64,000 nt of DNA from an uncultured virus (IMG/VR IMGVR_UViG_3300027833_000020) (lineage: Duplodnaviria; Heunggongvirae; Uroviricota; Caudoviricetes), in the IMG/VR virus record IMGVR_UViG_3300027833_000020, one strand, 5' to 3'. Positions within the stretch are counted from its first letter, which is position 1; the number at the start of each line of letters is the position of its first letter. The position numbers and the translations under genes are program-made. Positions 26,736-52,100 of the stretch are shown here, in pieces. A model generated the notes under the pieces. That model was not told where the DNA came from and ran no database searches. It was given only the letters and a program-made list of their open reading frames with translations.

Positions 26736-26737
26736 AA

Positions 26738-33133: not shown

Positions 33134-34295
33134 GTTTCCAAACGGCTCGTTGATACCAACTAGGATGATATCTACTGATAGGCAGCAGAATAATGGGTTG
33201 GCAGAAGCTGCTAATCCTGCCGCTGATGCTATGACTAAGATATTACTTGAGACTAAGCGACCAGACATTGCTGAAATTGAGATGACGTTATTTGAAAATT
33301 GTCATCTCAATTGCTCTTTCTGTCACCACGATAAGAAGTCGCATGTTGGTTTATCTCGAGCAGAAATATTCTCTAAGATCCCACTGGTTGAAGAACACGT
33401 TATTAAGATGAAAAACCGTGCAGACGTTATTCAGATTAATATGCTAGGTGGAGAGTTATTTCAAGATAGAATATCAGAATGGGCTTACGATGTTTACTAT
33501 GATTTTATGGTAGAGATTAAAAAGATCTATGATGAGCATAAACAAAATATTAAAGTAGTTTGGGTAACATCGTTTCAATTTGTTAAACGTGATAGAGTAC
33601 AGAAACTTCTCGATGATTTAAATGCTATTGATATTCCATCATATATTATTTGCTCATATGATTTCGATGGTAGACCTACTAAAGGACCATATGCTAAGAA
33701 CATAGAATACTTTGCTGATTATATTACATCAATTAATATGGTTGCAACTGTTCCTTCTGTTGAAAGATTTATGGCAGACGATGATGAGTATTTTCATTAT
33801 CTATATGAAAAGTTTGATAACTTTTACTTTGATGATTATATTCCAGATAAAGGTTTTAGTCATTTAATACCAAGTGATAGTTTATATCTCGAGTTTTTAA
33901 AGTTTGTTTATCACAATTATCCAGACATCAATCCTATTAAGGATCTGATAAATAACGATAAGAACCATATGCATTGCTTAGCTCTGAATAAGGTTACTAT
34001 ATTTCCAGACAATAGCACATCTAATTGTCGTTGGGATAGATATACACCCGAAGATTTCAATACACCGTTACATCGAAAAGATAATGCTTCAATGATGCAA
34101 GCTTATATGGATGAGAACGGTTGTTTATCTTGTAAGTGGTGGGATAAGTGTGGCTTTAGATGTTACACGCAGTGGGACTGGAAAACACGTGAACGTGACT
34201 TACCAGATTGTATTATGAGATTGTGGTTCAATTATATGGACAAGACACCACAAAATTTGATAACAGGATTTAATTATGATGAAACGAAAAAATAG
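33123..34295 (+). CDS. radical SAM / SPASM-like protein (4)
   Basis: CHLNCSFC, LGGE; HC, NC and CLSC.....C...C; start uncertain (TTG 33123 after GAGG; track gives 33075). Confidence 0.88.
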   Translation: MVPKFPNGSLIPTRMISTDRQQNNGLAEAANPAADAMTKILLETKRPDIAEIEMTLFENCHLNCSFCHHDKKSHVGLSRAEIFSKIPLVEEHVIKMKNRADVIQINMLGGELFQDRISEWAYDVYYDFMVEIKKIYDEHKQNIKVVWVTSFQFVKRDRVQKLLDDLNAIDIPSYIICSYDFDGRPTKGPYAKNIEYFADYITSINMVATVPSVERFMADDDEYFHYLYEKFDNFYFDDYIPDKGFSHLIPSDSLYLEFLKFVYHNYPDINPIKDLINNDKNHMHCLALNKVTIFPDNSTSNCRWDRYTPEDFNTPLHRKDNASMMQAYMDENGCLSCKWWDKCGFRCYTQWDWKTRERDLPDCIMRLWFNYMDKTPQNLITGFNYDETKK

Positions 34296-34992
34296 ACTTG
34301 ATTTTTATACAACGCATGATACTCTTATTGAAATGCAACCTATAAAACAAGGAACTAAACCGCCGGGATGGTGGAAGTCTATTAAGAATTCTTATGACCA
34401 ATTTAGATCTAGAGTTGGTGTAACTGTACCAACACCTACGATTAAGACTTGTCCTGGTGTCGTAGATTACATGCGCAAGCCAATCACATTAAAGTTATGG
34501 TCAGATGTTATTTTTAAAGTAAAAGCAAATGGTGATGTTGAAGCTATTGAGCCGATCCATAATGCAGGAATAATAGATGGTGCTATGCATCATTCCGAGC
34601 AATATGGTGATACATTATATCCGGGCAGAACAGTATTTAAATTGCACGGTCCTTGGGCAGTCAAAGCAAACTTTCCAGGCGAATATATGATAACAGAATG
34701 TCATTATAACGAAGACTTACGTAAGCATGGTATATTAATATCACCTGGAATTTCAAATTTTAATCTTCAGCACACATTAAATGCATTCCTTGTGTTCCCT
34801 ATTAAAGATGAAGATTACACTGTCACGTTAAAATATGGGACACCTATTATGTCTTTATATCCAATGCATGATAGGAAGTTTGAAGTTAAGATGCATAAAA
34901 CAGATCGTAAAGGTTTTAGTGATATACAATCAGTATTTCCGTCAACCTTTATTGGCAGATATTACACCGGGAAACACGCACTCAAGGATTGA
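34276..34992 (+). CDS. hypothetical beta-barrel protein often found with phage oxygenase clusters
   Basis: P.WWK, TIKTCPG..DY, K...PW, PG and GTP...L.P motifs. Confidence 0.65.
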   Translation: MMKRKNRLDFYTTHDTLIEMQPIKQGTKPPGWWKSIKNSYDQFRSRVGVTVPTPTIKTCPGVVDYMRKPITLKLWSDVIFKVKANGDVEAIEPIHNAGIIDGAMHHSEQYGDTLYPGRTVFKLHGPWAVKANFPGEYMITECHYNEDLRKHGILISPGISNFNLQHTLNAFLVFPIKDEDYTVTLKYGTPIMSLYPMHDRKFEVKMHKTDRKGFSDIQSVFPSTFIGRYYTGKHALKD

Positions 34993-35970
34993 ATGATGTT
35001 CCATATAAGAGAGCACGCCTTTATCAATACACGTCATCATATTAGGACAACCTGAACAGTTATCTGTTTGTGCTGAATAAGTAAGTTGTTTCATGAATTG
35101 ATTTTCTTTTGTACCAGTCCAAGATTCAATGTCGTTCTCATCTTTGACTTCAAATTCTTCTGTACCAATTAAAGCTGTATCATATATAAACGGAGTCCAA
35201 AAGAATCTCTCATTACAATATGTATAGTTTAATTCTAATGAACCACCTTGTGCTTTATCAACAATAGTTTTAGGATATAAGTCATCACTAAAATCATATG
35301 ATTTCCATTTATTAATTAAATGTTTTTGTAAAGATGATTTTGGTGCACGAAAGAATGAAGGATTTAATTGTAATATAGTATCAAAGCGTTCATCAGCAAC
35401 CTTTGCCATATCTACAACCATATCATTATAAAGATCGTTGTTACCCATATTGTGAACCATATAATAATTTAGATCGTCTTTAAAGTAGTTTAATAAATCT
35501 AATTTATCTTCTATGGCTGTCCAGTTAACAGGTGGTACTAAAGCAATATTACAATCATACATAAAGCCAGGCGCTTTTGGAATACTATTTAATAAATCAA
35601 TTACCTCATAGCTTATATGATTTAATGTAGTTACGAATTGAATAGTAGTTACTTTACTTAAACATTCTCTGAATACTTCATCCTTTAATAGATCAAGGAT
35701 ATTGTTATTGCCGAATAAATCAGTTGGACCAATATTAATGGTTGACACACGGTAGCCATTAGTATTAAATAGATCTATAGCATTATGCAATCTTTCAAAG
35801 CTACCAATGTTAGTTCCTTTTTTATTTACAAAGCAACCGGGACAGCGGAATTCGCAGCCTGCAAGTACTTCACAATTAAATTGAACTTTAATTTCGTGCC
35901 CTTCATTAAACGATAAGTTAAAATCTTTATCGGCTTGGGCAGCAGCTTTGTTGTTAGTAACTATTCCCAC
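34942..35970 (-). CDS. divergent radical SAM protein (5), GPTD type
   Basis: EVLAGCEFRCPGCFV, IGPTDLF; CSGC.....C...C; likely GTG start at 35970 after GAGG. Confidence 0.85.
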   Translation of the reverse strand: MGIVTNNKAAAQADKDFNLSFNEGHEIKVQFNCEVLAGCEFRCPGCFVNKKGTNIGSFERLHNAIDLFNTNGYRVSTINIGPTDLFGNNNILDLLKDEVFRECLSKVTTIQFVTTLNHISYEVIDLLNSIPKAPGFMYDCNIALVPPVNWTAIEDKLDLLNYFKDDLNYYMVHNMGNNDLYNDMVVDMAKVADERFDTILQLNPSFFRAPKSSLQKHLINKWKSYDFSDDLYPKTIVDKAQGGSLELNYTYCNERFFWTPFIYDTALIGTEEFEVKDENDIESWTGTKENQFMKQLTYSAQTDNCSGCPNMMTCIDKGVLSYMEHHSILECVFPGVISANKG

Positions 35971-37093
35971 TATAAACCTCATCATCATATAAACTGATTA
36001 CATCTTTGTTTAAGATGCATTCTTTTCTTCCATCAAACACGGTATCCATTATCATAGGAACCATTCTGTTTGCACATATATTTAAATACTTACAAGAACC
36101 ACATTCTTTATCAGAACTATTTTCTATTTGGCTATTGACAACCTCGTTCTTTTTGTTTAAAATAGAATCAACAAGTGAACCATTAACTGGTACTTTAAAA
36201 TCATCTATGTGTATTTGTGCGTTCTCATATATGAATGGCGACATATACATATCACCTTGATATAAACTTACTACAGAATAATGGAAAGCCTTGTGAGAAA
36301 CATCTCCTTGTAGGAAATGAAATTTGTTTTTAAATCTATTTTGATCTACCGACAAACGAGTAAGCATATCATTCCATTCAAATAACTTATCACCATGCTT
36401 TGCACTATGATTAAATGAACGTACAACTGACGGTAATACTTCGATTACTGTTTGGTATTTGGTTCTTACAAAGTCAATCGCTGCAAATAGAATTTCTTCA
36501 ACACCTTGAACAATATTAGTAGCCATACTAATTTCAAAGTTTAAAGAACTATTTTTAAATGTTTCTATTCGTCTGTCGAGTGCTTCCATATAGATTATGT
36601 CAGTCATTAATCTATTTAAATCTAAAGCGATCTGAACATCCCAAGCTTCTACTGCTTTACCTAGTGGTGAGTTCTCAATAGCTTTAATCTTGCTATCAAT
36701 ATCTTCTTCTGATAATGAACCAAGGATAGAACAGTTATGCTGAACATTTCTATTATCTTCAGGCATCATTAAAATTGCATCTGCAAGTCTTGGGTTATTA
36801 ATAATTTCTTCTAGATTCTCAGCACCATAGAAATCAGTTGGTCCGATTACAATATCATCTAATACGATATCGGTTCTATCTTTTAATTCATATGCAAGTG
36901 AATGAAATAGATTAATTGATTTTGGATTCCAATTGCCTCTACGTTTAACAAAACATCCAGGACACATATAAGAACAACCTTCAAGTATTTCTAAATTAAC
37001 TTGTATCTTGTAAGTACCCATCGAAGAAATAGCACTAAACTCTTCGAGCTTTTTGCCATCAATTACAATGCTTTTCCATTCATCATTTAACAT
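35954..37093 (-). CDS. divergent radical SAM protein (6), GPTD type
   Basis: EILEGCSYMCPGCFV, IGPTDFY; CGSC.....C...C. Confidence 0.85.
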   Translation of the reverse strand: MLNDEWKSIVIDGKKLEEFSAISSMGTYKIQVNLEILEGCSYMCPGCFVKRRGNWNPKSINLFHSLAYELKDRTDIVLDDIVIGPTDFYGAENLEEIINNPRLADAILMMPEDNRNVQHNCSILGSLSEEDIDSKIKAIENSPLGKAVEAWDVQIALDLNRLMTDIIYMEALDRRIETFKNSSLNFEISMATNIVQGVEEILFAAIDFVRTKYQTVIEVLPSVVRSFNHSAKHGDKLFEWNDMLTRLSVDQNRFKNKFHFLQGDVSHKAFHYSVVSLYQGDMYMSPFIYENAQIHIDDFKVPVNGSLVDSILNKKNEVVNSQIENSSDKECGSCKYLNICANRMVPMIMDTVFDGRKECILNKDVISLYDDEVYSGNSY

Positions 37094-38240
37094 AAGAAAT
37101 ATCTTTTATCCTATCTAATCTTTCGTCGCCGTCTTCTGTTACAAGAAACTTTTTCCTATAACCTTTCTTATCAGCGTCTACAGAATACCCATCCCAGTCA
37201 TACATCTCTTGGGCAGGAGCGTTATAGTTATGTATATTATTTATCATGTTTTCTTTGGGTGCAATACATCTATCAACACCAAGATAATCTCTTAACAAAA
37301 TAATTTTACGATTATAGCACGAGAAAAACATAGGACAGCTTTCACATTCAGTATTCTTTGCTCTATCTATTTGCGATTCAGTAATAGTTACAGCATCTTC
37401 AAACGTTTGAACTTTAAACATATCATGATAGATAGCCATATTTTCATACATAAACGGGCTTAAATACCACTCGCCTCTTTTGTAATTTAAAACAGTGTAA
37501 TTCATTCCTGCATGAGAATGATCCACCATTATATTATTCAACGTTGAATCTCTAGTCAATACATTAAAGTAGTCATTAAACTTATCTAATGTTTCTAATA
37601 TAATATTTGCTCTGTGAGATCTTGAAACAGATGGAATAAAATCTAATATAGTATCGAATGTTTTTACAGCATGCTCGTGTAAGGCAGCATAATCTAATCC
37701 ATAATCTTTAATATTTACAACAAACGTATATGTTATTTCATGCTTTATATGTTCATCTAAATATCTTAACTTGTTTTGCATGTCTGCCATATAATCTATT
37801 GACATAAACTTATGAGGATTGGTTGCAATACCGATCTCAATTTCTGTATCTAGATTAATATTATCTTTTAAGAATTCACAAAACCTTGGAATATCACCAT
37901 CAATTAATGTAGATACGAATGCTAAGATAGGAGAGTTTTCGTTTACAATATCAACTAGGTGTGGCATTACTTCATAGAAGTTTTCTGATGCTAAAAAGTC
38001 AGTTGGACCAATGAGCATTTCATCTACGAGTATTCCTTTGTCTGTAATGTTTCTTATAAATTCCTTAGCTGAATCTAGTTGATGTACATCAGATGCATTC
38101 CCGCGGCGGTGAACAAAGCATCCAGGACACTTGTGGTGACATCCATCTAGTACATCCAACTGTATCTTAACGGCGCTGACGGGCTTCGTTTGGGTCTCTG
38201 TCGTCAGTTCGTAATAAAGATTGTTCTTAATTATTGGCAT
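37083..38240 (-). CDS. divergent radical SAM protein (7), GPTD type
   Basis: DVLDGCHHKCPGCFV, IGPTDFL; CESC.....C...C. Confidence 0.85.
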   Translation of the reverse strand: MPIIKNNLYYELTTETQTKPVSAVKIQLDVLDGCHHKCPGCFVHRRGNASDVHQLDSAKEFIRNITDKGILVDEMLIGPTDFLASENFYEVMPHLVDIVNENSPILAFVSTLIDGDIPRFCEFLKDNINLDTEIEIGIATNPHKFMSIDYMADMQNKLRYLDEHIKHEITYTFVVNIKDYGLDYAALHEHAVKTFDTILDFIPSVSRSHRANIILETLDKFNDYFNVLTRDSTLNNIMVDHSHAGMNYTVLNYKRGEWYLSPFMYENMAIYHDMFKVQTFEDAVTITESQIDRAKNTECESCPMFFSCYNRKIILLRDYLGVDRCIAPKENMINNIHNYNAPAQEMYDWDGYSVDADKKGYRKKFLVTEDGDERLDRIKDISYVK

Positions 38241-39267
38241 GATGCATGTACTCCTTTAAAGCAACACAGCCTTTAATCTTTCTTGATCTCATATACATAT
38301 GAACATTACGCTCGGCACAACTCATTAAGAATTCACACGTATTACAATCGTCAGTAGTTTTTGCGTACTCTAAATTTTCATGTAGTGTAGGTTCATCTAT
38401 TTTTGATTCAAACTCTGGTGTTCTTTGTATAATAGCATCGTATAAAAATGGATTAACATATATCTTTCCATTATAAAAACTATAGTTCTGACAACCATAT
38501 CCATTAAAACTAGAATCAAAGAATGTATACAAGTTACGCCATTTAGAATCTATATTTTGATTTAATAGATCTTCTCTAAACATTTTTAAATGCTTATCAA
38601 CCTTGCCTCTTACATTTCTATCTGTAAGGAACGACGGAGTAATTACAATCGGTGCATTAAAGTCATCGAATACTTTTTGACATAAATCGTTATAAGATAT
38701 TTTATCAAAGATTCCTTCATACCAATTCACTCTTAATTGAACTGAACCTTCTTCAAACAGTGCAAGCTTTTTGTACCAATCGATCATACGAATATCTTTA
38801 TTAATATATTGATTAATATCTAAAACAATTTTAAAATCGATATCAGGTGTTCTATCAATACCTTCGTATAAGCTCCAGATCTTTTCGAGCTTTTCTTTTA
38901 TTACTTCAATAGGTTGATTAAGTGTTGTGAGAAACCCAATGGCAGATATACCATATAAGTCTTTCATAGCAGGATGTTCCATGATCTCGTCAAAGTTCTC
39001 TGCATCAAATATGTCAGTAGGACCCACGACAATTTCATCCGGATAATAACTACTTTCAAGCAGTGTATTATAGAGTGTAGTTAAATGATCTGAATTTGTA
39101 AGGTTCTTACGGGGAATAAAACAGCCAGGACACATCTGACTACATCCATGAAGTATGTCTAAATTAATTTCTGTTCTAAGGAAATCATTATTAATTGGAC
39201 TTTTATTTTCTTCATAGTTGTAATAGCCAGCATGAGTTTTATTCAGATGGACTATCATCGCCTTCAT
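38227..39267 (-). CDS. divergent radical SAM protein (8), GPTD type
   Basis: DILHGCSQMCPGCFI, VGPTDIF; CNTC.....C...C; start may be 39258. Confidence 0.85.
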   Translation of the reverse strand: MKAMIVHLNKTHAGYYNYEENKSPINNDFLRTEINLDILHGCSQMCPGCFIPRKNLTNSDHLTTLYNTLLESSYYPDEIVVGPTDIFDAENFDEIMEHPAMKDLYGISAIGFLTTLNQPIEVIKEKLEKIWSLYEGIDRTPDIDFKIVLDINQYINKDIRMIDWYKKLALFEEGSVQLRVNWYEGIFDKISYNDLCQKVFDDFNAPIVITPSFLTDRNVRGKVDKHLKMFREDLLNQNIDSKWRNLYTFFDSSFNGYGCQNYSFYNGKIYVNPFLYDAIIQRTPEFESKIDEPTLHENLEYAKTTDDCNTCEFLMSCAERNVHMYMRSRKIKGCVALKEYMHHANN

Positions 39268-40069
39268 CTACCGCCTTATCTGCTACAACCTCTTCTACAA
39301 TCTGCTCTGGAGTTTTCTCTACCATTTTCTCGTGGCTAATAATAAATCCTGGAGGCATAATATTTAGAATGTTATTAGTAATATTAGATTGTGTGAAAAG
39401 AAAGAATAAATCTTTTCCAAAGAACGCTGGCTTGTCATTATAGACTTGCTTATTGTATTCTTGTTTAAATCCTATCATGTGGCATACAAGTAAAAATCCA
39501 TCCCAGCCATCGATAATTAGTTTAGCGATATTAGGACCAATATTAGATGGTACGTCAATTACTTTTATTTCTTCCACAGCCTCGGCTACTTCTACTTCTA
39601 ACATTTTTGTTTCGTCAGGTAGATTATTATAGAATGTACATAGTACAAAAGGAATTACTTGAGCAATTGTATCTGCTAATTCGTTTACCAATTTAGTATG
39701 TTTATCAATAAAGTTAAACATCTCTTCTTTTGGCCACATATTAAAAAGCTCTTCTTCCAGATGATTTATATCATGTCCGAATCTTAACTTTAATAACATT
39801 ACAACAAATCTTGTTAACAATCCAGCATCAATCATAAAGTCTGATTTAATGTAAGCTAACATCAGCTCTTCATCGACGTGAGAAAATGTTGTTTTAAAAT
39901 TAGTATTGGCTAAGTAAATAACAATATGCTCAGCCGAAAGCTTTTCTTTAGACTCTAGGTAATTTACCCACAATACGTAATCATCTTCTGCTTCCTTAAG
40001 CTTGTAAATCTCTACAAGATCTTGCGGAGCAAGTGGAAGTTTATATGCTTTTTTTTCATTGTCACTCAT
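39239..40069 (-). CDS. hypothetical protein in the radical SAM operon
   Basis: 276 aa, helical and acidic, overlaps the downstream gene. Confidence 0.75.
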   Translation of the reverse strand: MSDNEKKAYKLPLAPQDLVEIYKLKEAEDDYVLWVNYLESKEKLSAEHIVIYLANTNFKTTFSHVDEELMLAYIKSDFMIDAGLLTRFVVMLLKLRFGHDINHLEEELFNMWPKEEMFNFIDKHTKLVNELADTIAQVIPFVLCTFYNNLPDETKMLEVEVAEAVEEIKVIDVPSNIGPNIAKLIIDGWDGFLLVCHMIGFKQEYNKQVYNDKPAFFGKDLFFLFTQSNITNNILNIMPPGFIISHEKMVEKTPEQIVEEVVADKAVDEGDDSPSE

Positions 40070-40086: not shown

Positions 40087-41193
40087 TTATATTAATGGAT
40101 ATTTGTGGATAAGGTAAGGAATTCTGTTTTGTCTCTTAGAGAAAAACTGTACATCTGTATTAATTAATCTTAAATCATCTGTAATAGTTTCACTACTAAA
40201 GTTTCTTTCCAATACCTTTTGAACAATTGGAAACACGTTATTGATCTCTGTATAAAGATCCATGTATTCCCAACCATCCGGCTGTGACGCTTTATCTGTA
40301 TGCACCTGAATAAACGCTGCGTTATCTTTAACTTTATCCCACAACTCTTTAAGTTTATAGAATGCTAACTGATAGTTACCTGCATTTGCTGCATTAACAT
40401 ATACATCTCTGAAGAACTCTTTTTTGTTAGTAGCCCAACCATTTGCTTCAGTAGCGTTTGCATTCATATAATCAATTACTGACATGATATATGCTGAATA
40501 GTGGCGACGTGAAGTAAAGTGTTCCATAACATCTTGAGCCATAACAGAAGAATGAATTGTGAATTTTTCTACGAGTAGATTTGATACACCTGTGCAAGGG
40601 TAGTTATCATTTAAGTAGAATAATAAATCGTAACTAAAGTTCTTACCATTTTGATATACTAAATCAAATCTTGGTGTTTCAGCATTTGCTAATGTGGCAG
40701 CACATGTTGTGCCTGCGTTTGTCATAACTTCGGAGTCACTCATTAAAGTAATTATACTATCAGTTTCTATAACAGCTTGAATAAAGTTACAAGTAATTAC
40801 GTCAATATCAACAGCAGGGTCAGCATCTGCATAAAATCCAGAAGCTAACAACAGGCCAGAGATATAACGACAATATACACTAAGCATATCTGTTTCGTCA
40901 TAAAAAGCAATGATTCTTTTATCACTGTTTTGTATATAAGTTGAATTGGCAATATCATCAAAATATTCAAAAGATATTAAGTCTGTAACGCCAGTTCTTA
41001 CAGCTTCTGCTAATAGAATAATTTGGCCTTCAATAAGCTGAGCACCTTCTTCTCGGTTTGGATGCACAACTACAATAGGTCTTGGCTCTTGTGTATGGTA
41101 AAACGAATTTAATTCGCCTACTATTGTTTCAATATTTTGAGTATTTGTAATATACTTTTTGTTATTTAGATAATATAAACTTTGCCCGATCAT
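40087..41193 (-). CDS. hypothetical protein in the radical SAM operon
   Basis: 368 aa; ATGA-coupled to radical SAM (9). Confidence 0.75.
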   Translation of the reverse strand: MIGQSLYYLNNKKYITNTQNIETIVGELNSFYHTQEPRPIVVVHPNREEGAQLIEGQIILLAEAVRTGVTDLISFEYFDDIANSTYIQNSDKRIIAFYDETDMLSVYCRYISGLLLASGFYADADPAVDIDVITCNFIQAVIETDSIITLMSDSEVMTNAGTTCAATLANAETPRFDLVYQNGKNFSYDLLFYLNDNYPCTGVSNLLVEKFTIHSSVMAQDVMEHFTSRRHYSAYIMSVIDYMNANATEANGWATNKKEFFRDVYVNAANAGNYQLAFYKLKELWDKVKDNAAFIQVHTDKASQPDGWEYMDLYTEINNVFPIVQKVLERNFSSETITDDLRLINTDVQFFSKRQNRIPYLIHKYPLI

Positions 41194-42365
41194 GAAGCTT
41201 CTCCTAATTTTTTAGTTGCATCATCATTCCAGGTCCAATCATATGGATTATAATGATTTAATACATCTTTGTTCAATACACAACCATCAATTTTTAATGT
41301 TTCTTGAGCTTCGAATACCAGTCTGCTTGCACAAGCAATTTTGTATTGGCAGGTTGAACAATCTTTTACCTTACTCGACCTATTTATACCTTTAGCAATA
41401 AGTTGGTTTTTTCTATCAAGGATTTCCTCGAATGTTAAACCAGTAACATCTAGATTCTTATTCTTTAAGAAGAATGCTTGCTCATGCAACATAACATTTA
41501 GGTGTGTAGTTGGACCATTTTCGCCTGGAACGATAGTGATACCAACAAAGTTAATAGAATTACAATATAGGTGAGCCATCGACATTACTGTTTCGTTAGC
41601 ATTGCCTTCGTCAATTACTCTTCCCAAGAATTCGTTCCAACCAAATAGGTTTTTACGCTGAACTAATTCATTGTGTGCTCTTGAGAATGCAGGATTCATT
41701 TCAACAATAGTTTCATAATCCTGTACTGAGCGTTTAATAATTTTATTATATGTTTCTTTATCTATTGATTTACCAACAACATTAGATGCTTGTAATGTCC
41801 AAGACCAATCCATTTGTTTTGGTGTGTTCTCTTTAAAGAACTTTACTTTTCTCATTACTTCTTCGTAATAAAGAATGTCGTTTAACATCTGATCTACTCT
41901 ACCAATTGGCATAATAAATTCAATAATCATTTCACGACGGAATTTATCTTCGTCATCAAGGATATTAAATATCTCTTGTACTCTTTCCATTGTTGCTACA
42001 TCGAATTTTGCAGGTGCAGCAATACGCGCATTAGTATGTTCGCGCATAATTTCTTGTACAGTTTTGTTGTTTAAAACCGATTCGGTATTTTTAGCAGTAA
42101 AGAAGTCAGTTGGCCCAATAACAAATTCTCTAAGATTAAGACCTGTTCTTAAAACACCATCTGTTAATTCTTTTGCTCTATCAATAATTTGTTGATTCAT
42201 AGCAGGATCAATATTCTTATCAACGAAACAACCTAGACAAGCTTGTTCACATCCTGATAATACTTCCATTTGAATTAACACATCAAATTTAGTTGCATCA
42301 CCTGGCGATAAACTTTCTGGGCCTGAATACCGCATTTGTTTACAGTATGATTTTTGCATTGACAT
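41190..42365 (-). CDS. divergent radical SAM protein (9), GPTD type
   Basis: EVLSGCEQACLGCFV, IGPTDFF; CSTC.....C...C; TAATG-coupled to the upstream small protein. Confidence 0.85.
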   Translation of the reverse strand: MSMQKSYCKQMRYSGPESLSPGDATKFDVLIQMEVLSGCEQACLGCFVDKNIDPAMNQQIIDRAKELTDGVLRTGLNLREFVIGPTDFFTAKNTESVLNNKTVQEIMREHTNARIAAPAKFDVATMERVQEIFNILDDEDKFRREMIIEFIMPIGRVDQMLNDILYYEEVMRKVKFFKENTPKQMDWSWTLQASNVVGKSIDKETYNKIIKRSVQDYETIVEMNPAFSRAHNELVQRKNLFGWNEFLGRVIDEGNANETVMSMAHLYCNSINFVGITIVPGENGPTTHLNVMLHEQAFFLKNKNLDVTGLTFEEILDRKNQLIAKGINRSSKVKDCSTCQYKIACASRLVFEAQETLKIDGCVLNKDVLNHYNPYDWTWNDDATKKLGEAS

Positions 42366-42748
42366 TAGCGTCGTCCTCTCGATGAATGGCAGCTACTATG
42401 GCAGCTGGCGTGACAGTAATAAGCATTGATTGTTCTGTTTGACAACCTACCTTCTATCACGTCTACTGTTCTTCTTGTTAAATCTTCTAATGTATCTACA
42501 ATATCAATTGGATACATAACATTACCTGTATTAATTGTGCCATCTACATAGTTATTATATGTATTGTTATTCGCATTAACATATTCAAACCTGTGATAAT
42601 ACCATTGTCCTCTAGAATAACTGGTTTGTCCGGCGTCAGCTCGTACATACGCGTTTACATAAATTCCTACAGTCTTATCAAATGTACGGAGTTGTCCGCC
42701 GCCATAAGATTGAACCCACGAGTTCACATCTGCTCTTGTCATAACCAT
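42365..42748 (-). CDS. candidate radical-SAM substrate / fibre-tip protein B with (CHxS)3 C-terminus
   Basis: 127 aa ending SNRTINAYYCHASCHSSCHSSRGRR. Confidence 0.75.
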   Translation of the reverse strand: MVMTRADVNSWVQSYGGGQLRTFDKTVGIYVNAYVRADAGQTSYSRGQWYYHRFEYVNANNNTYNNYVDGTINTGNVMYPIDIVDTLEDLTRRTVDVIEGRLSNRTINAYYCHASCHSSCHSSRGRR

Positions 42749-43125
42749 TAGCGTCTACCTCTTGATGAGTGACATGATGAGTGACAACTAGCGTGACAGT
42801 AATAAGCGTTGATAGTTCTGTTTGAAATTCTACCTTCTATCAAGTCTACTGTTCTTCTAACAATACTTGAGATAGAATTCTGTACATCACTAGATCTAAT
42901 AAGCTGGCCCGTGTAAAGACTACTATCTAGATAATTGCTGTATACACTATTTGAAGCATTTACATATTCATATCGCGTATAATGCCACTGGCCACGTGAG
43001 TAACTTGCAACCCCCGTACCACGAACATAACTGTTGATATAGTAGCCAACTGTTTTATCAAAAGTACGGAGCTGTCTACCACAATATGATTGTGTACTTG
43101 AATTTAATGATGCATATGTTGCCAT
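42748..43125 (-). CDS. candidate radical-SAM substrate / fibre-tip protein A with (CHxS)3 C-terminus
   Basis: 125 aa, paralog of B with identical last 25 aa; ATG 1 nt after the tail fibre stop. Confidence 0.75.
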   Translation of the reverse strand: MATYASLNSSTQSYCGRQLRTFDKTVGYYINSYVRGTGVASYSRGQWHYTRYEYVNASNSVYSNYLDSSLYTGQLIRSSDVQNSISSIVRRTVDLIEGRISNRTINAYYCHASCHSSCHSSRGRR

Positions 43126-43126: not shown

Positions 43127-46100
43127 TTATACTTTCACCTCTACTTCTCCATTTTCAGAATCGCTAAGCGCAATTCCTATAATCTCATAACTATTTATAC
43201 CACTTGTACCGTAGTCCACACCTTTAGCTTTTCCGTCGACATCTGGGATAACCCATTGGCCTTTCTTAACCGGTTGACTTACTAGACATGGAATACGTCC
43301 TTTAAGAGCAATAAATGGGTTCATTTTAGCTTTCGTAGAAGTACTTCCTGGCTCAATACCCATATCGTTCATTTGAACAGCTGGGTTAGTAGAGATAACA
43401 CCTAATAAAGGCATTCCTGGCTGCCATAAAGTAGCTTCAGAATCACCGTCAAGGTTAACACCGAGAACAGTTGCATTCTCATAGATTGCATCAGCAGTAT
43501 ATCTTTCCGCCAAATCCGCCCATCTTGCTGACGTTGCTGTACCGACATATAGACCGTTGTTATCAACATAAGATCTATCTGAACCATTTCTTCTGAACTG
43601 ACAAATACGGTTTGAGTTACCACCTGCTTCGATATAGAAACGGTTTGAGTGATATTCAATTTTACCAGCATCGTTACCAATGTTACCAGTCCAAGATTCG
43701 TTACCAGATTCAATGAATCTTAGAGATGGTGAGTAACCATCTTGGTGACGTGTTTGGAACTGCCATTGACCAGCAGCGTTAAGATCACCAGACCAAGTTC
43801 TGTCACCATACATCCAACGACACATTGTACCGTTATACGCTGCTCTAAGTTGTAGAGACATAGATGAACCGTTATTGTTACCAGTGATAGCCCAATACTG
43901 ACCTTGGTATGAATACGAATGCGAACCAGTTGCTGTGTTGTACATACCTTCTCGAGCATTATCATTACGGAACCAATTACGAGCATAAATCTCAGTAGCG
44001 CGTAAATCACCATTAAGGTTAGTACCTGATGATGGATCACAATAGAAACCAGTGTTATTAGAATCAATAAAGCTACTAGCGTATATTGCAGCACCGTTAC
44101 CGTTGTTAACACCTAGTACTGGAATTGTTCTCCAAGCTCTGAATCCACCCCAAGTAGAACGGAATCGTAAGTTCTCAATTGGTCCACCAACCATCTGCCA
44201 ACCGTAACGGCTTGAGCCATTTGAATAGTGATATGATTGAACACCAACCCAGTGAGACGTACCCGATGGTTGGTTGGCTGGATTAGACCACGAATCGATG
44301 AAACCAGAACCCCAGTTAGCAACCGAGCCGGTCATGTCCTGAGTTCCCCAACCCATTGCACCAGTCCAATAGTTAGTATCACTAGTAATACGTGGTCTTG
44401 CCATATAGTATTCAGCAGACGATCTAGTCTGACCTGATAGTGCCATATGCGCTTTAGTACGAGAACTTACACCTTCAAATCGTGTTGAGTTAATCGATGC
44501 ACCGTCGAAGTAATAACCAGTGTTATTAGTATCGTAAAAGATTGGAGCACGGTGGCTATTTGTAGATGTGCTAATACCGTTTGTCCACATTCCAGAACCA
44601 GCAGCAAACGTAGTACTACCGTTTTGCATTAATAGAAGCTGGTGGTTTAATCCAGTTTTAGACTGAATGTTATTGCTTGCGCCACCATAACCTGGATTAT
44701 AAGACCAAGCTAAACCATATAAGTTACCAGCTGCACCAGAAGTATCTGAACCATTTGCAGGTAAGTTATAAGAAGTACCCATTGACCAAACGTGCTGGTA
44801 ACGAGATGCACTATAAACACCGTAAACACCGTGACCGTAATTAGTTGCAACCCAAGCTTTTTGAGTAGCCATTTTAGATTCAGCGTTAATGTTAACAGTA
44901 TATAAGTTAGAAGTACCGTTAGGATTTATATAGTAACCAGAGTTATTTCTATCATACATGACAGGCGCGTAGAAGTTATGGTGTGAATCTACTTTAGAGT
45001 TAGTAGTTTGTAACGCCCAACCATCATCTTGCGATAGAATACCTACTTCATTACTATTATTTGCATAGAATGCGCCACGTCTGTTATTACCAGAAGTGTG
45101 CATATCAATTCTAGAAGTATTTGAAGTTGAATAAGCTCTCCAAGCATTATTTGCAGTTGAGTACCAATGCATTGCAGTAGCAGTGTTATATAGACCACGA
45201 CTGCTTGTATCGTTACGGAACCAACCATCGTTATATACTTCACCTCTAATGTCAAGTGAATTCATTATAGAGGTAGATGCAAAGTCACCATAATAAGTAG
45301 TGCTATTTGAATCGTAATAACGAGGAGCTCTTACATCACCTTGGAAGTAACCAATCTGTGCTCGCATACTTTCATAGCCAGTACCAGGATTGTTTCTAAT
45401 CTGGATCTCACCATTTGTTTGAAGCATAATCTGCGATGCAACTCGTCCACCCCAGTGGAAACCAATTCTTGGTGCTGTTTGCTCATTAGCTGCACCAGTC
45501 CCCGCATAATTAAGTTCTCTAACTTCAAGAGCAGCATAGTCATATCTTGCATTAGCATCAACTGCAGCAACTTTAAGATGCTTGATTCTAGAGTTACTAT
45601 TTGGATCTAATCTATATGTAGTATCGTCAGAATCATAAAAGATACTCGCGTAGAAAGAAGAATTAGCTCCACCGCCTGGATTAGCGTTGTATATTGCAAG
45701 ATCAGAATATGCTGAATACGCAGTACCAGAGTTCCAAGACTGTTGATATAGACGCATTCCACGTCCACCAGTTTTCTTGAACATAAGAAGGTTATCTGAT
45801 CCACCAGAAGCATCTGTGTAAGATCTAAGGTGCAAGTAATCAGCGTATGGTGATGAGTTGTTATTGTTCCAAGATGTGAAACCGAACTTTAACTGTCCAG
45901 ACGTATCATCATTTGGTTCAATGCTTCTGTTATCTCTTGATGTTAATGAACCGGAATAACCAGTAACACCTGGTGTGTTAATTACACCAAGTGTTGTTAA
46001 ATCACGGAATCTTGAAGTTCCATTTGGATTTGCATAGAATCCAGTATCATTTGAGTCATAGTAGATTGGAGCACGCATTTGGTTATTTGCTTCGAAGTAA

Positions 46101-49100
46101 CCATTTTGAGTACGAGCTTGTTGACCACCGTTATAATAAAGAATGGTACGAGCATTACGCTCCATATAGATTGACCATTCATTTTCAATACCAGTTCTGA
46201 AACCCCAATGAGAATCATCATCAAAGTAAATTCTACCACATGCTGTACTGTTACTATCACGGAAAATAATTTCGCCATTATCAGAGTTGTTAGAACGAAT
46301 ACTTAAAGTGTTACTATCGTCGTCGTAAATATCCCAACCATCATTAAGGCTGTACGTATTAGCATTAATAACGTTCATTCTAGATGTAGAAGCGAAGTTA
46401 CCGTAGTAAGTAGTATCATTTGAATCGTAGAAGATAGGAGATCTGGAACTTGCGTTAGCATAACTGATACCAGAAACTGTAATGTTACCAGACATCGCCC
46501 AGTTACCAGAAGAATCTGTCCAGTTAGTATCAGTTACAAATCTTAATCTATCAGGGTTTGTACCTTCAGACATTCTAATCATTTGACGACCACCAGCAAC
46601 AAGCTGCATGTCATCAGCGGCTGGGAATCTTAGGTAAGTATCAGTATCGCCGTTGTGTCTAAAGTAATCATTAACACGTACTTCGTTAAGTATAGATGTT
46701 GACGCTGGGTCTAAGTAATAAGCAACATTATCTTTATCACGGAATCTTGTAGCATCCATATAACGACCAGCAATAGCATCGCCTGATGTGTTAAGTGTTA
46801 ATCTTCTTGTACCAGCACCAGTGCCGGAAGTAAATTGTAAATTACCACCTGCATTTGTTTGGTTATCTGGTGATTCATAAATCTGCCACGAGTTGCCATT
46901 ATTCCATTTAATACCTTCGCTTGCGCCTGGATCATTAAACGTTAGGTTATTTAGATTCGTAATAGAACCGTTAGTCCAATCCCAAGTACCAACAACTTTA
47001 CCACCAGAAGCTGGGTTCATAAAGTATGCAGTATTATCGCGATCACGGAAGTTGCTTGCATCAACTACATTTAATTTAGATGTTGAAGCTGGATCTAAAT
47101 AGTAGTTTGCGTCATTTGAATCATAATAGATTGGTGAGAAAACTGCTTCATCTGTACGTATTCTTGAAGGAACTTTTGTTCGCATTAAGATAGGTGGAGT
47201 AAACTCACGAAGAGCTCCACCTGTGCTGTAGTTCATTAGAACACGCATTCTTACATATCTACATGCTTGCCCGTCTGAACCGCTATAAGCAGTATGTGTT
47301 GTTGGTATAGTACTGTAACCTGAGAATTTCTGCCAAGAAGTACTTGTTACGTTATTACCGCCACCAACAAAATATGTTGTACCAGTATTACCAGCGATTG
47401 GTTTCTTGTCTTTATCAAATCTTTCAATACCGTAATAGAATAATCCACCAGATCCTGAAATTCTTTTAACATACATTTCACCGTAAACTTCTTCGCCAGG
47501 TTCTACTTCAATCATATCTGAATAGAAGTTACGATAAGCTGCAGTTCTTAATACGTATGATGATGGAGCTGGAGAATCAGTAGATTTAACATATTCTCCT
47601 GTAGTACCGGTAGGAGCAATTTCGTTACCTTGCAACGCTTGGATTGCTCTCTTTTCCCAGTACTTAGCACCATCGAATAATTTAAGTTCTGTTTTACCAA
47701 CACCGTATGCGGGGTTTAACGATATGTTTTCGTTACCAGCATTCAGGTTATAGTTTGATGCAGCCATCTCACCAGTAATAAGCATATTACCAGCTTCGTC
47801 TAAGTTTAACTTATCGCCTAATCCATTGAAGTGTATAATGAATGCGTCTTTAGAACCAGTTTGGTTAAAGTTATAATTATCATGTACCAACCAAGGGTAG
47901 TTAGCACCAGCACCACTGTTTCTTAGGCCAGTTAAATATCTTTGAGCAGAATAGACTTCTAAAGGATATGTTGAATTATTATTAATAGGTCCATTGCCGG
48001 CTTTAACAGATTTTAATCTAGATTGTCCAGCCATCTCAGCATAGAAATTAGTATTATCTGAATCATAGAAAATCTTAGAACGCATGCTTACTGGAGCATA
48101 ACCATATCCATTCTCTGCACCAATCTGATGTACACCGTTTGAATATAATCTTGTAAAGTTATTATCTTGTGCGTAAAGCGACCATTCATTACGGGTATCG
48201 TTGTAAAGACCCATATTAGTAGCGCCGTTAGACATGAAGACCCAATCATCTCTGATTGCATAACCTGCCCAACCACCAGTATCACCTTCAACTTTAATTG
48301 TGCCGTAGTTACCAGATGGTGAATCAATATATCTTCCAGATACATCCATTTGGTATTGATTAGCTCTTACAACATTCATTATAGATGTTGAAGCAAAATC
48401 ACCGTAGTAAGCAGTGTTATTTGAATCATAGAATCTTGGTGCTCTAAAGTCACCACGAGCTTCTACATATCCACCACTTCTAGGACCACGCATTGCCCAA
48501 TTGCCGTTGACACTGTTATCATGTCCAATTAGTCCCCAAGTACCATTTGATAAACCGTTTAGAGTTACTGGCTGACCACTAGCACTAGTTACTTGAGTGG
48601 ATCCACCTTGATATGCAAGTGACATACCATATCGATCCATTGCAGCAGTTGTTGAATTATGTTCTGCGAAGAATATGCGAGCTGAACCTTCACCACTAGA
48701 ATCGGCATTACCTTCGATAGATAAGTAACGACCTTTTACTCCGTTAGTACCTGGAGCACCAAAAGTAATTCCATTCATTCGTGATGTGCTAGCAGGATCT
48801 GTATAATAGAAACTATCGTTGCTGTCGTAATAACGTGGTGCGTAAACATTAACACTAAAGTCTGCTGAGTTAGCATCTACATTAAAACGTTCTGTGCCAT
48901 TTGTAAATAGTTTAAAGTTATTGTTACCTGCAAAGCCAAAGTAAGCATCTACATTACCGTTATGTCTAATCCAATCATCAATGTTAATATCATTCATTAC
49001 TGACGTGCCAGCAAAGTCACCGTAGTAAGTAGGTGTATTAGAATCGTAATAAGCTGGTGCATAAACATTTTGTGCAAAGTTAGCAGAATCGTTATCGATG

Positions 49101-52100
49101 TTTACACGTTGTGCGCCACCGGTAAAGATTTTAACTGTATCATTAGCACTAAATCCGATATATGTATTTGTATCACCACGATGACGAATATAATCATCAA
49201 TATCAATGGTGTTTAATTGAGAATCACCGGCTGGATCTAAGTAATAATTAGCATCTGAACCGTCGTAGAAACGAGCGCCTGTAATATTACCAGTTGTATA
49301 GATAGCTTTGTTATTACGTACTTTTATAGTAGCAGTATCATCCATATAGAAACCGCCACCTTGACCAAAGCCAAGATCGTTATTTTTAAAATAACTTGAA
49401 GTTCCATTACCAAGTACGATTGCATCGTTGTCACCAGCAAGTGATACTGAACCAGATACATGTAATTTGTTATTTTCTATTGTACCTATAGCAGGAGTAG
49501 CATCTGAAACTGCGTATGTTGTAGAATCGTTATTAACAATTACGTCGCCTGATGAGAGTACAGCAAACTTACCGCTTGCGCTCTCGTCGTATACAACAAA
49601 ATTGTTATCAGTAACTAAGTATGCATTACCTGATGCATCACCAGCAAATCTAAAGTCTGTACTAGTATCGCCGAAGTCCATAAGTCTGTTAGTAGCAGCA
49701 AACGGGTTATTACCCATTGTGGCTTCTTGTCTAACACTTAGTGGTGAGGTTGGATTTAAAAGACCAACACCTACATAACCACCATTCGGGTTTAAGGCAA
49801 GTTCAAAATTAGCATTGTCTGACTCACGACCAGATTGCATTGCAACTGAATAATTACCAACTGATGATAATGAAGCAATGTGTAGATGAACATCAGATCC
49901 ACCAACTTTAAGTGCTGAGTCACTTAGGTCTGCAAGACTATCTGGACGAGTTAAACTATTACCGATATATCCACGGCCTGTAGCAGTTATGCTGCCGGTT
50001 ATATTTGTATTTTGATTAAGACTAATAAGAGAACTAGCAAAGTTTGCACGTTTACCACCAGCAGTCCATACACCAAACTGATCAGCAGCATCAAAACCAA
50101 CATAAGTGTTTGTGTCACCGGTGTGTGTAAGATAATCGTCTGTGTAGAATCTTGGAGCATATACATTCTGAGTAAAATCAGCTGAGTCAACATCAATGTT
50201 TACTTGTTTAACGTTATTAGCCCAGATACCGAAAGCATTGTTAGTATTAAAACCAAAGTAAGCAGTATTATTACCATTATGTTTAATGTAATCATCAATA
50301 CCGATATTGCCCATTACTGAGGATCCAGCAGGATCTACGAGATAAGTATTATTGCCACTATCGATTAATCTTGGAGCATAAACATCAACACTAAAGTCTG
50401 CACTGTCGTTATCAATATTTAATCTTTGAACTGCATTGGTCCATACACGGAATGTATCATTAGCACCAAAGCCAAAGTAAGTGTTTGTATCACCACGGTG
50501 TCTAATGAAATCATCAATATCAATGGTGTTTAATTGTGAATCACCATTTGGATGTAAGTAATAAGCAGTGTTTGTTGAATCGTAGAAGATTGGAGCTCTA
50601 AATGAACCCGGCGCTTCAACGTAAGTTGTATAGACATTTAATTCGTTATTACCGCCTGCTGAGAAAGCAATTCTATCAGCAGCACCTCTATACATACCTG
50701 TATTAGGATCGGAAGTAAACGAGAAAGAAGGTAATGCGGCTGTACCGTTACCTGTAAGCATTTGACCAGCAGCTTTTATCGATACACCAGTATTATTAAA
50801 ATCTGCGTAATATGTTTCGTCGTCGTAATCATAATAGATAGGAGCATATGCACCAGATGTAAATACACCGAACGCTGCTGTTATTGTATTACTACCAGCA
50901 TTAATTGGTCTGTTAAAGTTAAATCTATTTAAGCCAATACCAGATGAAACAATTTCAAAGTTTACACTATGATCTGTTCCGTCTGATTCATCTTGATAAT
51001 ATCTTATGTAGCCTTGACCATCAGTAACATTAACATTGAATCTTTCGTTAACATTACGACCGATATTTACATCGTTAGTAGTTGCACCACTATAGAAGTT
51101 AGCAGAATGTAATTCAGATAAACCTGCCGGATCGATAAACTTAGTATTATCAGCAGCATCTAGCATTCTAGGAGCAATAAGATCAACCGATGATGTTACT
51201 GCAGTATTTGATACTACAAGTCTGTCTGCGCTAGCAGTGGCAAACTTAATCGTGCTGGGTTCGAATGCAACAGCCGTTCCAACATCGTCATTATGAATAA
51301 TAGCATTATCAATTCCGATAGTTTGCATTTTTGAAAGTGAAGCCGGATTTACATAATAAGTATTATCGTTTCTATCAATTAACCTATCAGCAATTATATC
51401 ACCAACATATTGGAAAGATGTGGCAGACATTAAACCAAGCTGACTACCCGCGATATCAAATCCAATTTGGCTATCTGCTGGGAAGTCTATTAGAGTAGTT
51501 ACATCGCCATCACGACGTAAAGCACCTGCAAGATCAATATTATTAAGTGTTGATATACCTGATGGAATAACCTCATAGGTATTATCATTAATATCAATAA
51601 ACTTTTGTGCGTAAATATCATCTGTTACTTGAACATCACCAGAGGCGTCTACTTTAAATGCGTAATTAAATGATGTGTTTAAGAAACCAATTTCGCCAAC
51701 TGTAGAAGCAAGAGTACCGTTGTTTCCGGCACCATCCATATATAAGAATGCTGTTCCGTTACCGTCGCCAACTGTTAAGTTACCTTCGACTGTAATATTA
51801 CCTGATGCTACATCGTCAGCATCAGATCTTAAGAATTGAGAAGCTTCTAAACCATCTACTGTGTCAGCGTCAAAGTTATTGCCTGAACCTTCGTCAGCAG
51901 TTGTAATAATGCGACCTAAGTCTACACCATCTGAAATAAGTTTAAACCAATCGGCTGTTTCATCCCACTGTAAAGAAGATGCATTCTCATCACCACGAAG
52001 AACTTCCCAGCCAGCATTCTCTGTTGGAGCACCGGTTGTAAAATTACTATTAAGTGTAAGAAGATTATCAGCAAATAAGATTGTTTCAGACTGAACTTCA

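What the first reader, a model, noticed from the sequence alone, without database searches (positions are those of the whole stretch)
42365..43125. Two paralogs share an invariant 25-aa core despite heavy synonymous divergence
Seen: the N-terminal ~100 aa of the two proteins are clearly diverged, while the last 25 aa (SNRTINAYYCHASCHSSCHSSRGRR; 42368-42442 and 42751-42825) are identical. By hand comparison 13 of these codons differ synonymously, including two Ser AGY-to-TCA switches (TGC CAT AGT AGC TGC CAT versus TGT CAC TCA TCA TGT CAC). The identity therefore reflects protein-level selection rather than recent duplication or gene conversion. The motif gives three H-x-S units (the aromatic-X-X spacing of triceptide cyclophanes and Hxs repeats), each preceded by Cys (a possible thioether donor), then a cationic RGRR tail. 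An alternative is a Cys/His metal site in an oligomeric fibre tip.
Basis: partly seen in the sequence, partly recalled or inferred. Interest (0 to 1): 0.85.

Follow-up and report, generated by a model that had tools for sequence, protein, structure and literature searches.

The report
Radical-SAM-linked tail on phage proteins
Two small genes behind a giant tail fibre of a T4-like phage end in the same 16-residue Cys-His-x-Ser tail, which is nearly unchanged in very different phages and predatory bacteria and sits beside the same radical-SAM enzymes, so it is most likely a chemically modified part of a virus-particle protein that has not been described.

Summary
In detail: the last 25 residues are identical and 13 codons differ. 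The conserved unit is shorter, the terminal 16 residues (CHxS)x3-RGRR-stop. It ends 123 of 135 distant representatives of 58-541 aa. The 9 residues before it vary, and some relatives show gene conversion. All 70 distinct viral loci found by the motif alone carry a related radical-SAM gene. Three of the enzyme families each hit the same 12 cultured phages, and all 12 carry the tail. A chaperone-ended fibre gene is usually upstream. Bdellovibrionota genomes carry the cassette, several beside pilin-like/S74 fibre genes. The Atu_ph07 homologue gp170 is in the published virion proteome; at 32 kDa it peaks in the top gel band. Best reading: an undescribed phage cassette covalently matures this tail on a folded, fibre-associated virion protein. 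The chemistry is inferred, not shown. It works like HXS, triceptide and QhpD/CrpC systems but fails their membership tests. This scan had already noted the same system in other genomes.

The parts
42748..43125 (-). Tail protein A, 125 aa: folded body (helix, long beta-hairpin, helix) plus the terminal 16-residue tail
   Evidence: AF2 mean pLDDT 88.6; weak match to phrog_35144, unknown function
42365..42748 (-). Tail protein B, 127 aa: paralog of A; the A-then-B pair recurs throughout this phage clade
   Evidence: 33 of the 34 best-matching viral loci L001-L034 hold both genes, the other starts 105 bp before the gene
42751..42798 (-). 16-residue tail (CHxS)x3-RGRR of protein A, directly before the stop codon
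42368..42415 (-). 16-residue tail of protein B
43127..52675 (-). 3182-aa tail-fibre-like protein ending in a Peptidase_G2-type intramolecular-chaperone domain; it ends 2 bp before gene A
   Evidence: 18 of 21 aligned C-terminal domains match PF11962, the window's own copy does not on its own; the window copy matches phrog_19602 tail fibre, E 2e-7; weak PDB hits to phage tailspike/appendage chaperone domains
41190..42365 (-). Accessory radical-SAM-like protein, family rB (CxxxCxGC, GPTD in place of GGE), copy 1 of 5
   Evidence: the five copies are 21-29% identical to each other
40087..41193 (-). 368-aa unknown protein H40, found with the short A/B-type tail proteins
   Evidence: no family hit; gene maps
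39239..40069 (-). 276-aa unknown protein H39, a core partner whose family usually follows the tail gene
   Evidence: family present in 76 of 80 motif-found viral loci; no family hit
34942..39267 (-). Four further rB radical-SAM-like genes (38227-39267, 37083-38240, 35954-37093, 34942-35988)
34276..34992 (+). 238-aa unknown protein OX34, accessory
   Evidence: phrog_7084, unknown function; gene maps
33075..34295 (+). Core radical-SAM enzyme rC
   Evidence: CxxxCxxC and GGE; phrog_1802; in 35 of 35 full-flank loci
32735..33133 (+). Core 132-aa helical protein S32, possible substrate-delivery partner
   Evidence: phrog_20737; in 30 of 35 full-flank loci; AF2 pLDDT 93.7
31843..32757 (+). Core radical-SAM enzyme rD
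   Evidence: PF04055 above cut-off; in 34 of 35 full-flank loci
30810..31862 (+). Core radical-SAM enzyme rE with SPASM-like C-terminal cysteines
   Evidence: PF04055 above cut-off; invariant auxiliary cysteines; in 32 of 35 full-flank loci
29722..30810 (+). Core radical-SAM enzyme rF with SPASM-like C-terminal cysteines; in most single-gene loci it directly precedes the tail gene
   Evidence: in 32 of 35 full-flank loci
29259..29762 (+). Cupin/JmjC-like oxygenase
   Evidence: PF07883 above cut-off; in 29 of 35 full-flank loci
28631..29302 (-). 2OG-Fe(II) oxygenase
   Evidence: PF13759 above cut-off; family in 22 of 35 full-flank loci

Best explanation
The two genes encode small folded proteins that are built into the virion, probably on or beside the fibre encoded just upstream. 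Their terminal (CHxS)x3-RGRR is the substrate of a dedicated cassette: four core radical-SAM enzymes, two partner proteins, a cupin and a 2OG oxygenase, here with five extra rB paralogs. The most likely chemistry is H-abstraction at the beta-carbon of each Ser followed by a cross-link to the His ring two residues back and/or the Cys sulfur three residues back, possibly with hydroxylation. The modified tail stays on the protein and acts as a rigid, possibly covalent, anchor or metal-binding tip in the host-recognition apparatus. Shown: sequence, conservation, gene linkage, predicted fold, and a homologue in a virion (published data). Inferred: that the enzymes act on the tail, the bond type, the site on the fibre, and the function.
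For: Tail: ends 123 of 135 cluster representatives whose bodies range from 58 to 541 aa. The Ser positions accept Ser, Asn and Ala, while the x positions accept Gly, Thr, Gln and others; this fits beta-carbon radical chemistry as in His-x-x cyclophanes (own knowledge). Linkage: of 80 motif-found viral loci with flanks, 70 are distinct; 70 of 70 carry a cassette radical-SAM gene, 66 within 1.5 kb; in 35 full-flank loci rC, rD, rE and rF occur 35, 34, 32 and 32 times. Reverse: among 50,697 phage records rF, rE and rC each hit the same 15 records, 12 phages; all 12 carry the tail gene. All nine radical-SAM-like genes in the window keep CxxxCxxC. Fibre link: a chaperone-ended gene lies in 45 of 58 loci with at least 4 kb upstream. 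14 of 25 GTDB matches are labelled Bdellovibrionota, and 5 of 5 neighbouring fibre genes tested there carry Peptidase_S74. Virion: Atu_ph07 gp170 has 8 peptides and 35% coverage, whereas gp164-169, 171 and 172 are not listed (PMC6102473 Table S5); at 31.9 kDa it peaks in band 1, the largest upward shift (6.3 bands) of 69 proteins fitted. Precedents for radical-SAM modification of proteins: HxsA (PMC13128918) and CrpA/QhpC (PMC13692751).
Against: No modification, mass shift or enzyme-substrate contact was observed; linkage cannot name the substrate. The 12 cultured phages are only about three independent lineages, nine being RSL2-like. In the IMG/VR reverse test only 19 of 80 rE loci reached a tail gene; in 61 the cassette ran to the edge of the fetched DNA, so they are uninformative, and none was a closed cassette without the tail. 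The virion evidence is one distant homologue that shares only the tail and a similar end architecture. The gel shift could come from disulfides, since the listed loading buffer has no reductant and the tail holds the only three Cys of gp170; that would mean free thiols. Two proteins of similar mass with 1-2 peptides (gp321, gp616) also peak in band 1 and were left out by my 4-peptide filter. 13 of 58 loci lack the chaperone-ended gene nearby, among them the RSL2-like phages. rD, rE and rF have no room for a fused N-terminal RRE.
Confidence: 0.66

Rival explanations
1. The tail is an unmodified Cys/His metal site (Zn, Fe, Cu or an Fe-S cluster) in an oligomeric virion protein. The neighbouring enzymes modify something else in the host-recognition region, or the protein serves them as a metal carrier.
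For: C and H are invariant at i, i+4, i+8, and AF2 places residues 112-119 in a helix, which would line them up. A homologue is in the virion and runs as a large species. Some loci add a B12-type radical-SAM enzyme or a glycosyltransferase-like gene, so the cassette may have other targets.
Against: A simple metal site does not explain why four radical-SAM families and the tail are always found together, nor the invariant Ser, RGRR and stop position. The large species survived SDS, 8 mM EDTA and 95 C. There is no HxH motif as in T4-type fibre tips (own knowledge).
Confidence: 0.13
2. The proteins are true RiPP precursors with a long structured leader. The modified 16-mer is cut off and acts as a diffusible product (metallophore, antibiotic or counter-defence signal) during infection.
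For: Variable N-terminus with invariant C-terminal core, several tailoring enzymes, and cupin/2OG oxygenases form a RiPP-like layout. Long structured leaders exist in proteusins (PMC10858898, search listing only).
Against: No protease or transporter was found among the cassette proteins scanned. The homologue is in purified particles with 35% coverage and as a large species, not a clipped leader. The body is under constraint and split into two stable paralog types. The gene sits next to fibre genes.
Confidence: 0.12
3. The tail is modified, but the protein works inside or on the infected cell rather than in adsorption, for example as a packaged or surface-displayed HxsA-like blocker of superinfecting phage DNA, or a counter to HXS defence.
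For: HxsA is a radical-SAM-matured protein with basic HxS repeats that blocks DNA entry (PMC13128918 sections 9 and 11). The tail is His/Arg-rich. The cassette lies in the host-recognition island, which also holds glycosyltransferases thought to alter the host surface (PMC7029224 passages). Bacterial copies exist.
Against: No signal peptide or peptidoglycan-binding domain is evident. Bacterial copies are concentrated in predators and several lie beside fibre genes. The linkage to chaperone-ended fibres is tight.
Confidence: 0.09

Closest known systems
HXS anti-phage system (HxsA, radical-SAM HxsB/HxsC, HxsD; TIGR03977/03978; Li et al. 2026, PMC13128918; abstract and sections 9 and 11 read)
   Same: A protein-sized substrate with His-x-Ser units and basic residues, matured by more than one radical-SAM enzyme plus a small partner; the modified motif stays on the protein (+8 Da on SHRSS).
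   Different: [quoted passage not shown] Here the units are Cys-led with period 4, at the extreme C-terminus, with four core enzymes that score far below the HxsB/HxsC cut-offs, and the system is phage-borne and fibre-linked.
Protein thioether systems QhpD/QhpC and CrpC/CrpA (Dieter et al. 2026, PMC13692751; abstract and passages read)
   Same: A SPASM radical-SAM enzyme acts on Cys motifs of a folded protein, not a short peptide.
   Different: One RRE-dependent enzyme, not four plus oxygenases; no His-x-Ser array; cellular proteins; the paper does not mention phage (0 occurrences).
Triceptide cyclophane synthases (GrrM/OscB, XyeB, FxsB, YhhB, AmcB; chemistry from own knowledge)
   Same: Aromatic-x-x motif, here His-x-Ser/Asn/Ala three times; the best NCBIfam neighbours of rD, rE and rF include these maturases.
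   Different: Scores are about 35 bits or less against cut-offs of 310-450. The substrate is a folded virion-type protein with invariant Cys, and no peptidase or exporter was found.
Radical-SAM gene cassettes in marine T4-like phage genomes (PMC5332604; PMC7029224; passages read)
   Same: Many radical-SAM genes in T4-like genomes (12 in one), and cassettes of them inside the host-recognition cluster next to tail fibres, the position seen here.
   Different: The passages treat them as Fe-S-related auxiliary genes or variable cassettes; they name no substrate, motif or pathway.

Membership tests
HXS / His-Xaa-Ser system | Tandem His-Xaa-Ser repeats without a leading Cys (period 3, recalled) | tested here: not met
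   Units are C-H-x-S with period 4; no HxsA model hit for either protein at E 0.1 or for 32 further tail proteins at E 0.05
HXS / His-Xaa-Ser system | HxsB and HxsC orthologues | tested here: not met
   Best scores 30.5 bits against a cut-off of 370 (TIGR03978) and 24.6 against 267.9 (TIGR03977)
HXS / His-Xaa-Ser system | Exported effector with a peptidoglycan-binding domain | tested here: not met
   No relevant Pfam domain in either protein; no hydrophobic N-terminus in the translations
Triceptides (three-residue cyclophanes) | Aromatic-x-x motif in the core | tested here: met
   His-x-Ser three times; the third position varies only among Ser, Asn and Ala apart from rare single cases
Triceptides (three-residue cyclophanes) | A cyclophane synthase of a known clade | tested here: not met
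   GrrM/OscB 34.9 against 310; AmcB 28.6 against 425; YhhB 22.5 against 445; FxsB 19.8 against 370; XyeB 15.4 against 450
Triceptides (three-residue cyclophanes) | His-to-beta-carbon cross-link in the product | not testable with these tools
   Needs MS/MS and NMR
Ranthipeptide/sactipeptide and Cys-Xaa-Xaa-Xaa repeat systems | Cys every fourth residue in the core | tested here: met
   C110, C114 and C118 invariant in alignment A1
Ranthipeptide/sactipeptide and Cys-Xaa-Xaa-Xaa repeat systems | Match to curated precursor or maturase models | tested here: not met
   Only TIGR04065 at 13.8 bits against 26 for protein B; PapB 26.4 against 340; CcpM 21.8 against 500
Ranthipeptide/sactipeptide and Cys-Xaa-Xaa-Xaa repeat systems | RRE domain, fused or stand-alone | tested here: inconclusive
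   CxxxCxxC starts at residue 11-19 in rD, rE and rF, so no N-terminal RRE; the S32 model gives only Z 3.5 or lower; H39 was not folded
QhpD/CrpC-type protein thioether installation | Folded protein substrate beside a SPASM-type radical-SAM enzyme | tested here: met
   AF2 pLDDT 88.6; auxiliary cysteines in rE and rF and sub-cut-off TIGR04085 hits
QhpD/CrpC-type protein thioether installation | Cys-to-carbon thioether in the product | not testable with these tools
   Needs alkylation and MS/MS
T4 gp37/gp12-type metal-binding fibre tip | HxH motifs (recalled) | tested here: not met
   His residues are four apart and no HxH occurs in the tail
T4 gp37/gp12-type metal-binding fibre tip | Intertwined trimer with axial metal ions | not testable with these tools
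   Needs SEC-MALS, ICP-MS or a structure

The most novel reading that the evidence does not exclude
Phages and predatory bacteria share a radical-SAM pathway that turns a universal 16-residue C-terminal tag into a covalent joint or a built-in cofactor. It lets very different bodies (58-541 aa) be fixed to prey-recognition fibres. That would be enzyme-made radical cross-linking of a virion component with new Cys-His-Ser chemistry, and the detergent- and heat-resistant high-mass form of Atu_ph07 gp170 would be its product.
Probability: 0.3. Interest if true: 0.93.

Novelty: new variant of a known kind. Interest (0 to 1): 0.78.

Why it matters
If true, large phages of unrelated groups (T4-like, phiKZ-like) run a RiPP-like radical-SAM pathway on a structural protein of their own particle, and bacterial predators use the same pathway beside their adhesin fibres. 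It would give a substrate to phage radical-SAM clusters that papers have listed as auxiliary genes without function. It would also offer four to five uncharacterised enzyme families acting on one 16-residue tag, a likely source of new cross-linking chemistry. It is directly testable because a cultured phage with a published proteome (Atu_ph07) carries the whole core cassette.

Tried and rejected
Homotrimer plus zinc prediction gave no answer (median score 0.05, mark 0.42); it is no evidence either way. Fold searches with the protein A model found nothing clear: no Foldseek hit at E 0.001 in PDB or BFVD, best VIA Z 5.9 to generic helical bundles. The S32 model gave best Z 3.5. The PDB sequence search with A1 gave no significant hit. 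ESM Atlas gave no usable hit for protein A or H39. tblastn of protein A found no cultured phage; the low-complexity filter cuts the tail (matches stop at residue 170 of 186), which may be why the family was overlooked. rE found no plasmid match at 1e-20. The first reverse scan, with rF, gave only 9 close loci, none reaching a tail gene within the flank. The Bdellovibrionota NDxAD protein matches the fibre chaperone domain only weakly (hhalign probability 30%, E 5e-4), so that homology is a lead. A profile of the RSL2-069-like partner showed no overlap with H40. P0144 (1283 aa) is a spurious repeat hit. RP12/RP31 radical-SAM genes (PMC5468394 passage) were not hit by rC, rE or rF, so I did not use that proteome; its supplements were listed, not read. 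The RSL2/RSF1 proteome paper is not held and could confirm or weaken the virion claim. No whole genome is held for the window. Literature: eight searches and term searches in the jumbo-phage review PMC7824862 showed no description of this motif or cassette. I saw only the listed hits (25 of 1,146, none relevant); most subscription papers and bioRxiv supplements are not searchable. Rejected: artefact or chance (real coupled ORFs, purifying selection, hundreds of homologues) and very recent duplication (56% body identity, 11 of 16 tail codons differ).
Full report
1. Observation. Two coupled minus-strand genes, 42748-43125 (A, 125 aa) and 42365-42748 (B, 127 aa), end in the same 25 residues. 13 of the 25 codons differ, with two TCA/AGY serine switches. 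The N-terminal parts are 56% identical (56 of 100), so they are diverged but clearly homologous.

2. What is conserved. A word-indexed search gave 160 homologues, of which 120 were listed. In these the last 16 residues are fixed except at three x positions: C, H, S12 and RGRR are kept in 118-120 of 120. The nine residues before them are kept in only 47-102 of 120, and the exact 25-mer occurs in 18. A profile search of 1.84 billion representatives gave 135 hits; 123 end in the tail directly before the stop, on bodies of 58 to 541 aa, and 78 of those 123 have no other Cys. Distant hits were found largely through the tail, so their invariance is partly circular; the close set is not. Within the two-gene clade pN/pS is 0.20 (A, 25 genes) and 0.12 (B, 24 genes) for the tail, 0.58 and 0.64 for the nine-residue linker, and 0.50 and 0.44 for the body; pS is saturated, so these are rough. 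Selection is therefore real, but conversion also occurs. Two of 24 distinct pairs have 0 or 1 synonymous difference in the tail. In the window a 22-codon block upstream of the repeats has only 3 differences in 20 identical codons (P 0.002, block chosen after the fact), while 11 of the next 13 differ.

3. The proteins. AF2 with 77 sequences gives a confident fold (pLDDT 88.6, pTM 0.72): helix 4-19, a long beta-hairpin, helix 78-99 and a helix over the tail. No known fold, solved relative or curated family matched. The only useful family hit is phrog_35144, unknown function.

4. Surroundings. The window is a T4-like phage; its major capsid protein is 65% identical to that of Sinorhizobium phage phiN3. 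Gene A starts 2 bp after a 3182-aa fibre-like gene whose C-terminal domain family is Peptidase_G2 (18 of 21 members). Downstream lie nine radical-SAM-like genes, all with CxxxCxxC: five divergent rB paralogs and four others (rC, rD, rE, rF). With them are two unknown partners (H39, S32), H40, a cupin and a 2OG oxygenase. This is the position of the host-recognition cluster in which PMC7029224 noted radical-SAM cassettes without assigning a function (passages); PMC5332604 noted 12 such genes in one T4-like genome (passages).

5. Linkage. 80 came with flanks; the 41 without were not counted. After removing duplicates, 70 of 70 hold a cassette radical-SAM gene, 66 within 1.5 kb. In the 35 loci with full flanks rC, rD, rE and rF occur 35, 34, 32 and 32 times; three of the four incomplete ones are two-gene loci, where these genes lie more than 10 kb away as in the window. 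The H39 family is in 76 of 80. The usual order is fibre, cupin, rF, tail gene, H39, rC, rE, rD, S32, 2OG. A chaperone-ended gene is present in 45 of 58 loci with at least 4 kb upstream. In reverse, rF, rE and rC each hit the same 15 of 50,697 phage records. These are 12 phages: nine RSL2-like, Atu_ph07, Phosso and pPa_SNUABM_DT01. All 12 carry the tail gene, but they stand for about three lineages. In IMG/VR the best 80 of 337 rE loci gave 19 with the tail, 61 cut at the edge, and none closed without it.

6. Cellular copies. The pattern hit 25 stretches in GTDB genomes, 14 labelled Bdellovibrionota (13 genomes), one on a 1.29-Mb contig. Several others have the phage gene order and are probably mis-binned phage contigs (inference). 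Two stretches at contig ends (L180, L181) show no enzyme. All five neighbouring fibre genes tested, from four Bdellovibrionota loci and one Flavobacteriaceae-labelled locus, carry Peptidase_S74; two also match the pilin N-methyl motif, one of them below cut-off. The cassette thus lies beside chaperone-ended fibres in both phages and predators.

7. Virion evidence. In the Atu_ph07 proteome (PMC6102473; passages and supplement parts 2 and 3 read) the tail protein gp170 has 8 unique peptides and 35% coverage, and the cassette proteins gp164-169, 171 and 172 are not listed. It is 31.9 kDa but most abundant in band 1. In a fit of band against mass for the 69 part-3 rows with at least four peptides it is 6.3 bands above expectation, the next being 2.3; the other 26 proteins of 25-40 kDa peak in bands 4-13. 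Rows gp20-56 were not fitted; their 29-37 kDa proteins peak in bands 5-11. Two low-peptide proteins, gp321 and gp616, also peak in band 1. The listed buffer has SDS and EDTA but no reductant, so disulfides through the tail Cys could explain the shift, as could an enzyme-made cross-link or an intertwined oligomer.

8. Mechanism. Shown: the tail, its selection, the two-way linkage, the fibre context, and one homologue in particles. Inferred: the enzymes act on the tail. The Ser positions accept Asn and Ala, while the x positions accept Gly and larger residues. That suits H-abstraction at a beta-carbon, with the His two back or the Cys three back as partner (own knowledge of triceptide and ranthipeptide chemistry). 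Four enzymes plus oxygenases suggest several steps. The fixed RGRR and stop suggest a recognition handle. I put 0.66 on covalent maturation of a virion protein, 0.13 on an unmodified metal site, 0.12 on a released peptide and 0.09 on an intracellular HxsA-like role.

9. Comparison. It works like HXS (PMC13128918; abstract and sections 9 and 11) and like CrpC/CrpA or QhpD/QhpC (PMC13692751; abstract and passages), where radical-SAM enzymes modify a protein. It is not a member of HXS, the triceptides or the curated Cys-repeat systems: the repeat period differs from HXS and all enzyme scores are far below cut-off. Eight paper searches and the jumbo-phage review showed no description, within the limits of the library. 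The RSL2/RSF1 proteome paper could not be read.

10. Earlier notes. This scan had reported the same system in other genomes. I reached the linkage, virion and HXS evidence before seeing them. One note led me to the Crp paper. They are unchecked AI notes and are not counted as support.

11. Verdict. A real feature and part of an undescribed, widely shared cassette. A new variant of a known kind (radical-SAM maturation of a protein), in a new setting and probably with new chemistry. Interest 0.78. The boldest reading, an enzyme-made covalent joint on prey-recognition fibres, has probability about 0.3 and interest 0.93.

Noticed in passing
window 29259-34992 versus 34942-43125: The two halves of the cassette converge head to head here. 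In L008, L010, L022 and L025 all genes lie on one strand with only two rB copies, so an inversion and an rB expansion separate sub-clades.
   Followed up: partly
L178, L182, L188, L191, L193 (genome contigs): A small protein with a twin-arginine-like N-terminus lies near the cassette in 5 bacterial loci, and an NDxAD protein in 7. The tail proteins show no evident signal peptide, so co-export is possible.
   Followed up: partly
L188:17180-18919: Some bacterial cassettes add a B12-binding radical-SAM enzyme, which suggests an extra methylation step.
   Followed up: partly
L002 and L008, tail codons: The tails of the two paralogs are almost or fully identical in DNA (1 and 0 synonymous differences in 16 codons), which points to recent gene conversion. 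Across 24 pairs, within-genome tails are more alike (15.3 of 16) than between genomes (14.0).
   Followed up: yes
L048:9359-10063; L070:8747-10051; L110; L178:9407-10631: Tail variants: a duplicated array (L048), four units (L070), and independent two-gene arrangements (L110, L178).
   Followed up: no
L050:11534-13357 (Atu_ph07 gp176): The chaperone-ended protein upstream of the cassette is also in the virion; at 66 kDa it peaks in band 4 with 50-55 kDa proteins, as expected if the C-terminal domain is cleaved.
   Followed up: partly
L189:1-3092: Several genes upstream have N-termini that look like those of tail proteins; this contig in a Bacilli MAG looks like a large phage.
   Followed up: no
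window 59363-64000: A collagen-like G-x-Q repeat protein of at least 1545 aa that ends in an S74-like motif (label by eye).
   Followed up: no
window 11670-13430: A 586-aa protein between the portal-like and prohead-protease-like genes with a near-perfect internal tandem repeat of about 60 aa.
   Followed up: no
window 24745-27784: Three genes between the cassette and the neck genes look like nucleotidyltransferase/cupin and glycan-modifying enzymes (by eye; no Pfam hit above cut-off for the two scanned), as in the host-recognition island described in PMC7029224.
   Followed up: no
window 52729-54966: A fibre-like protein with four tandem 15-aa repeats near its C-terminus.
   Followed up: no
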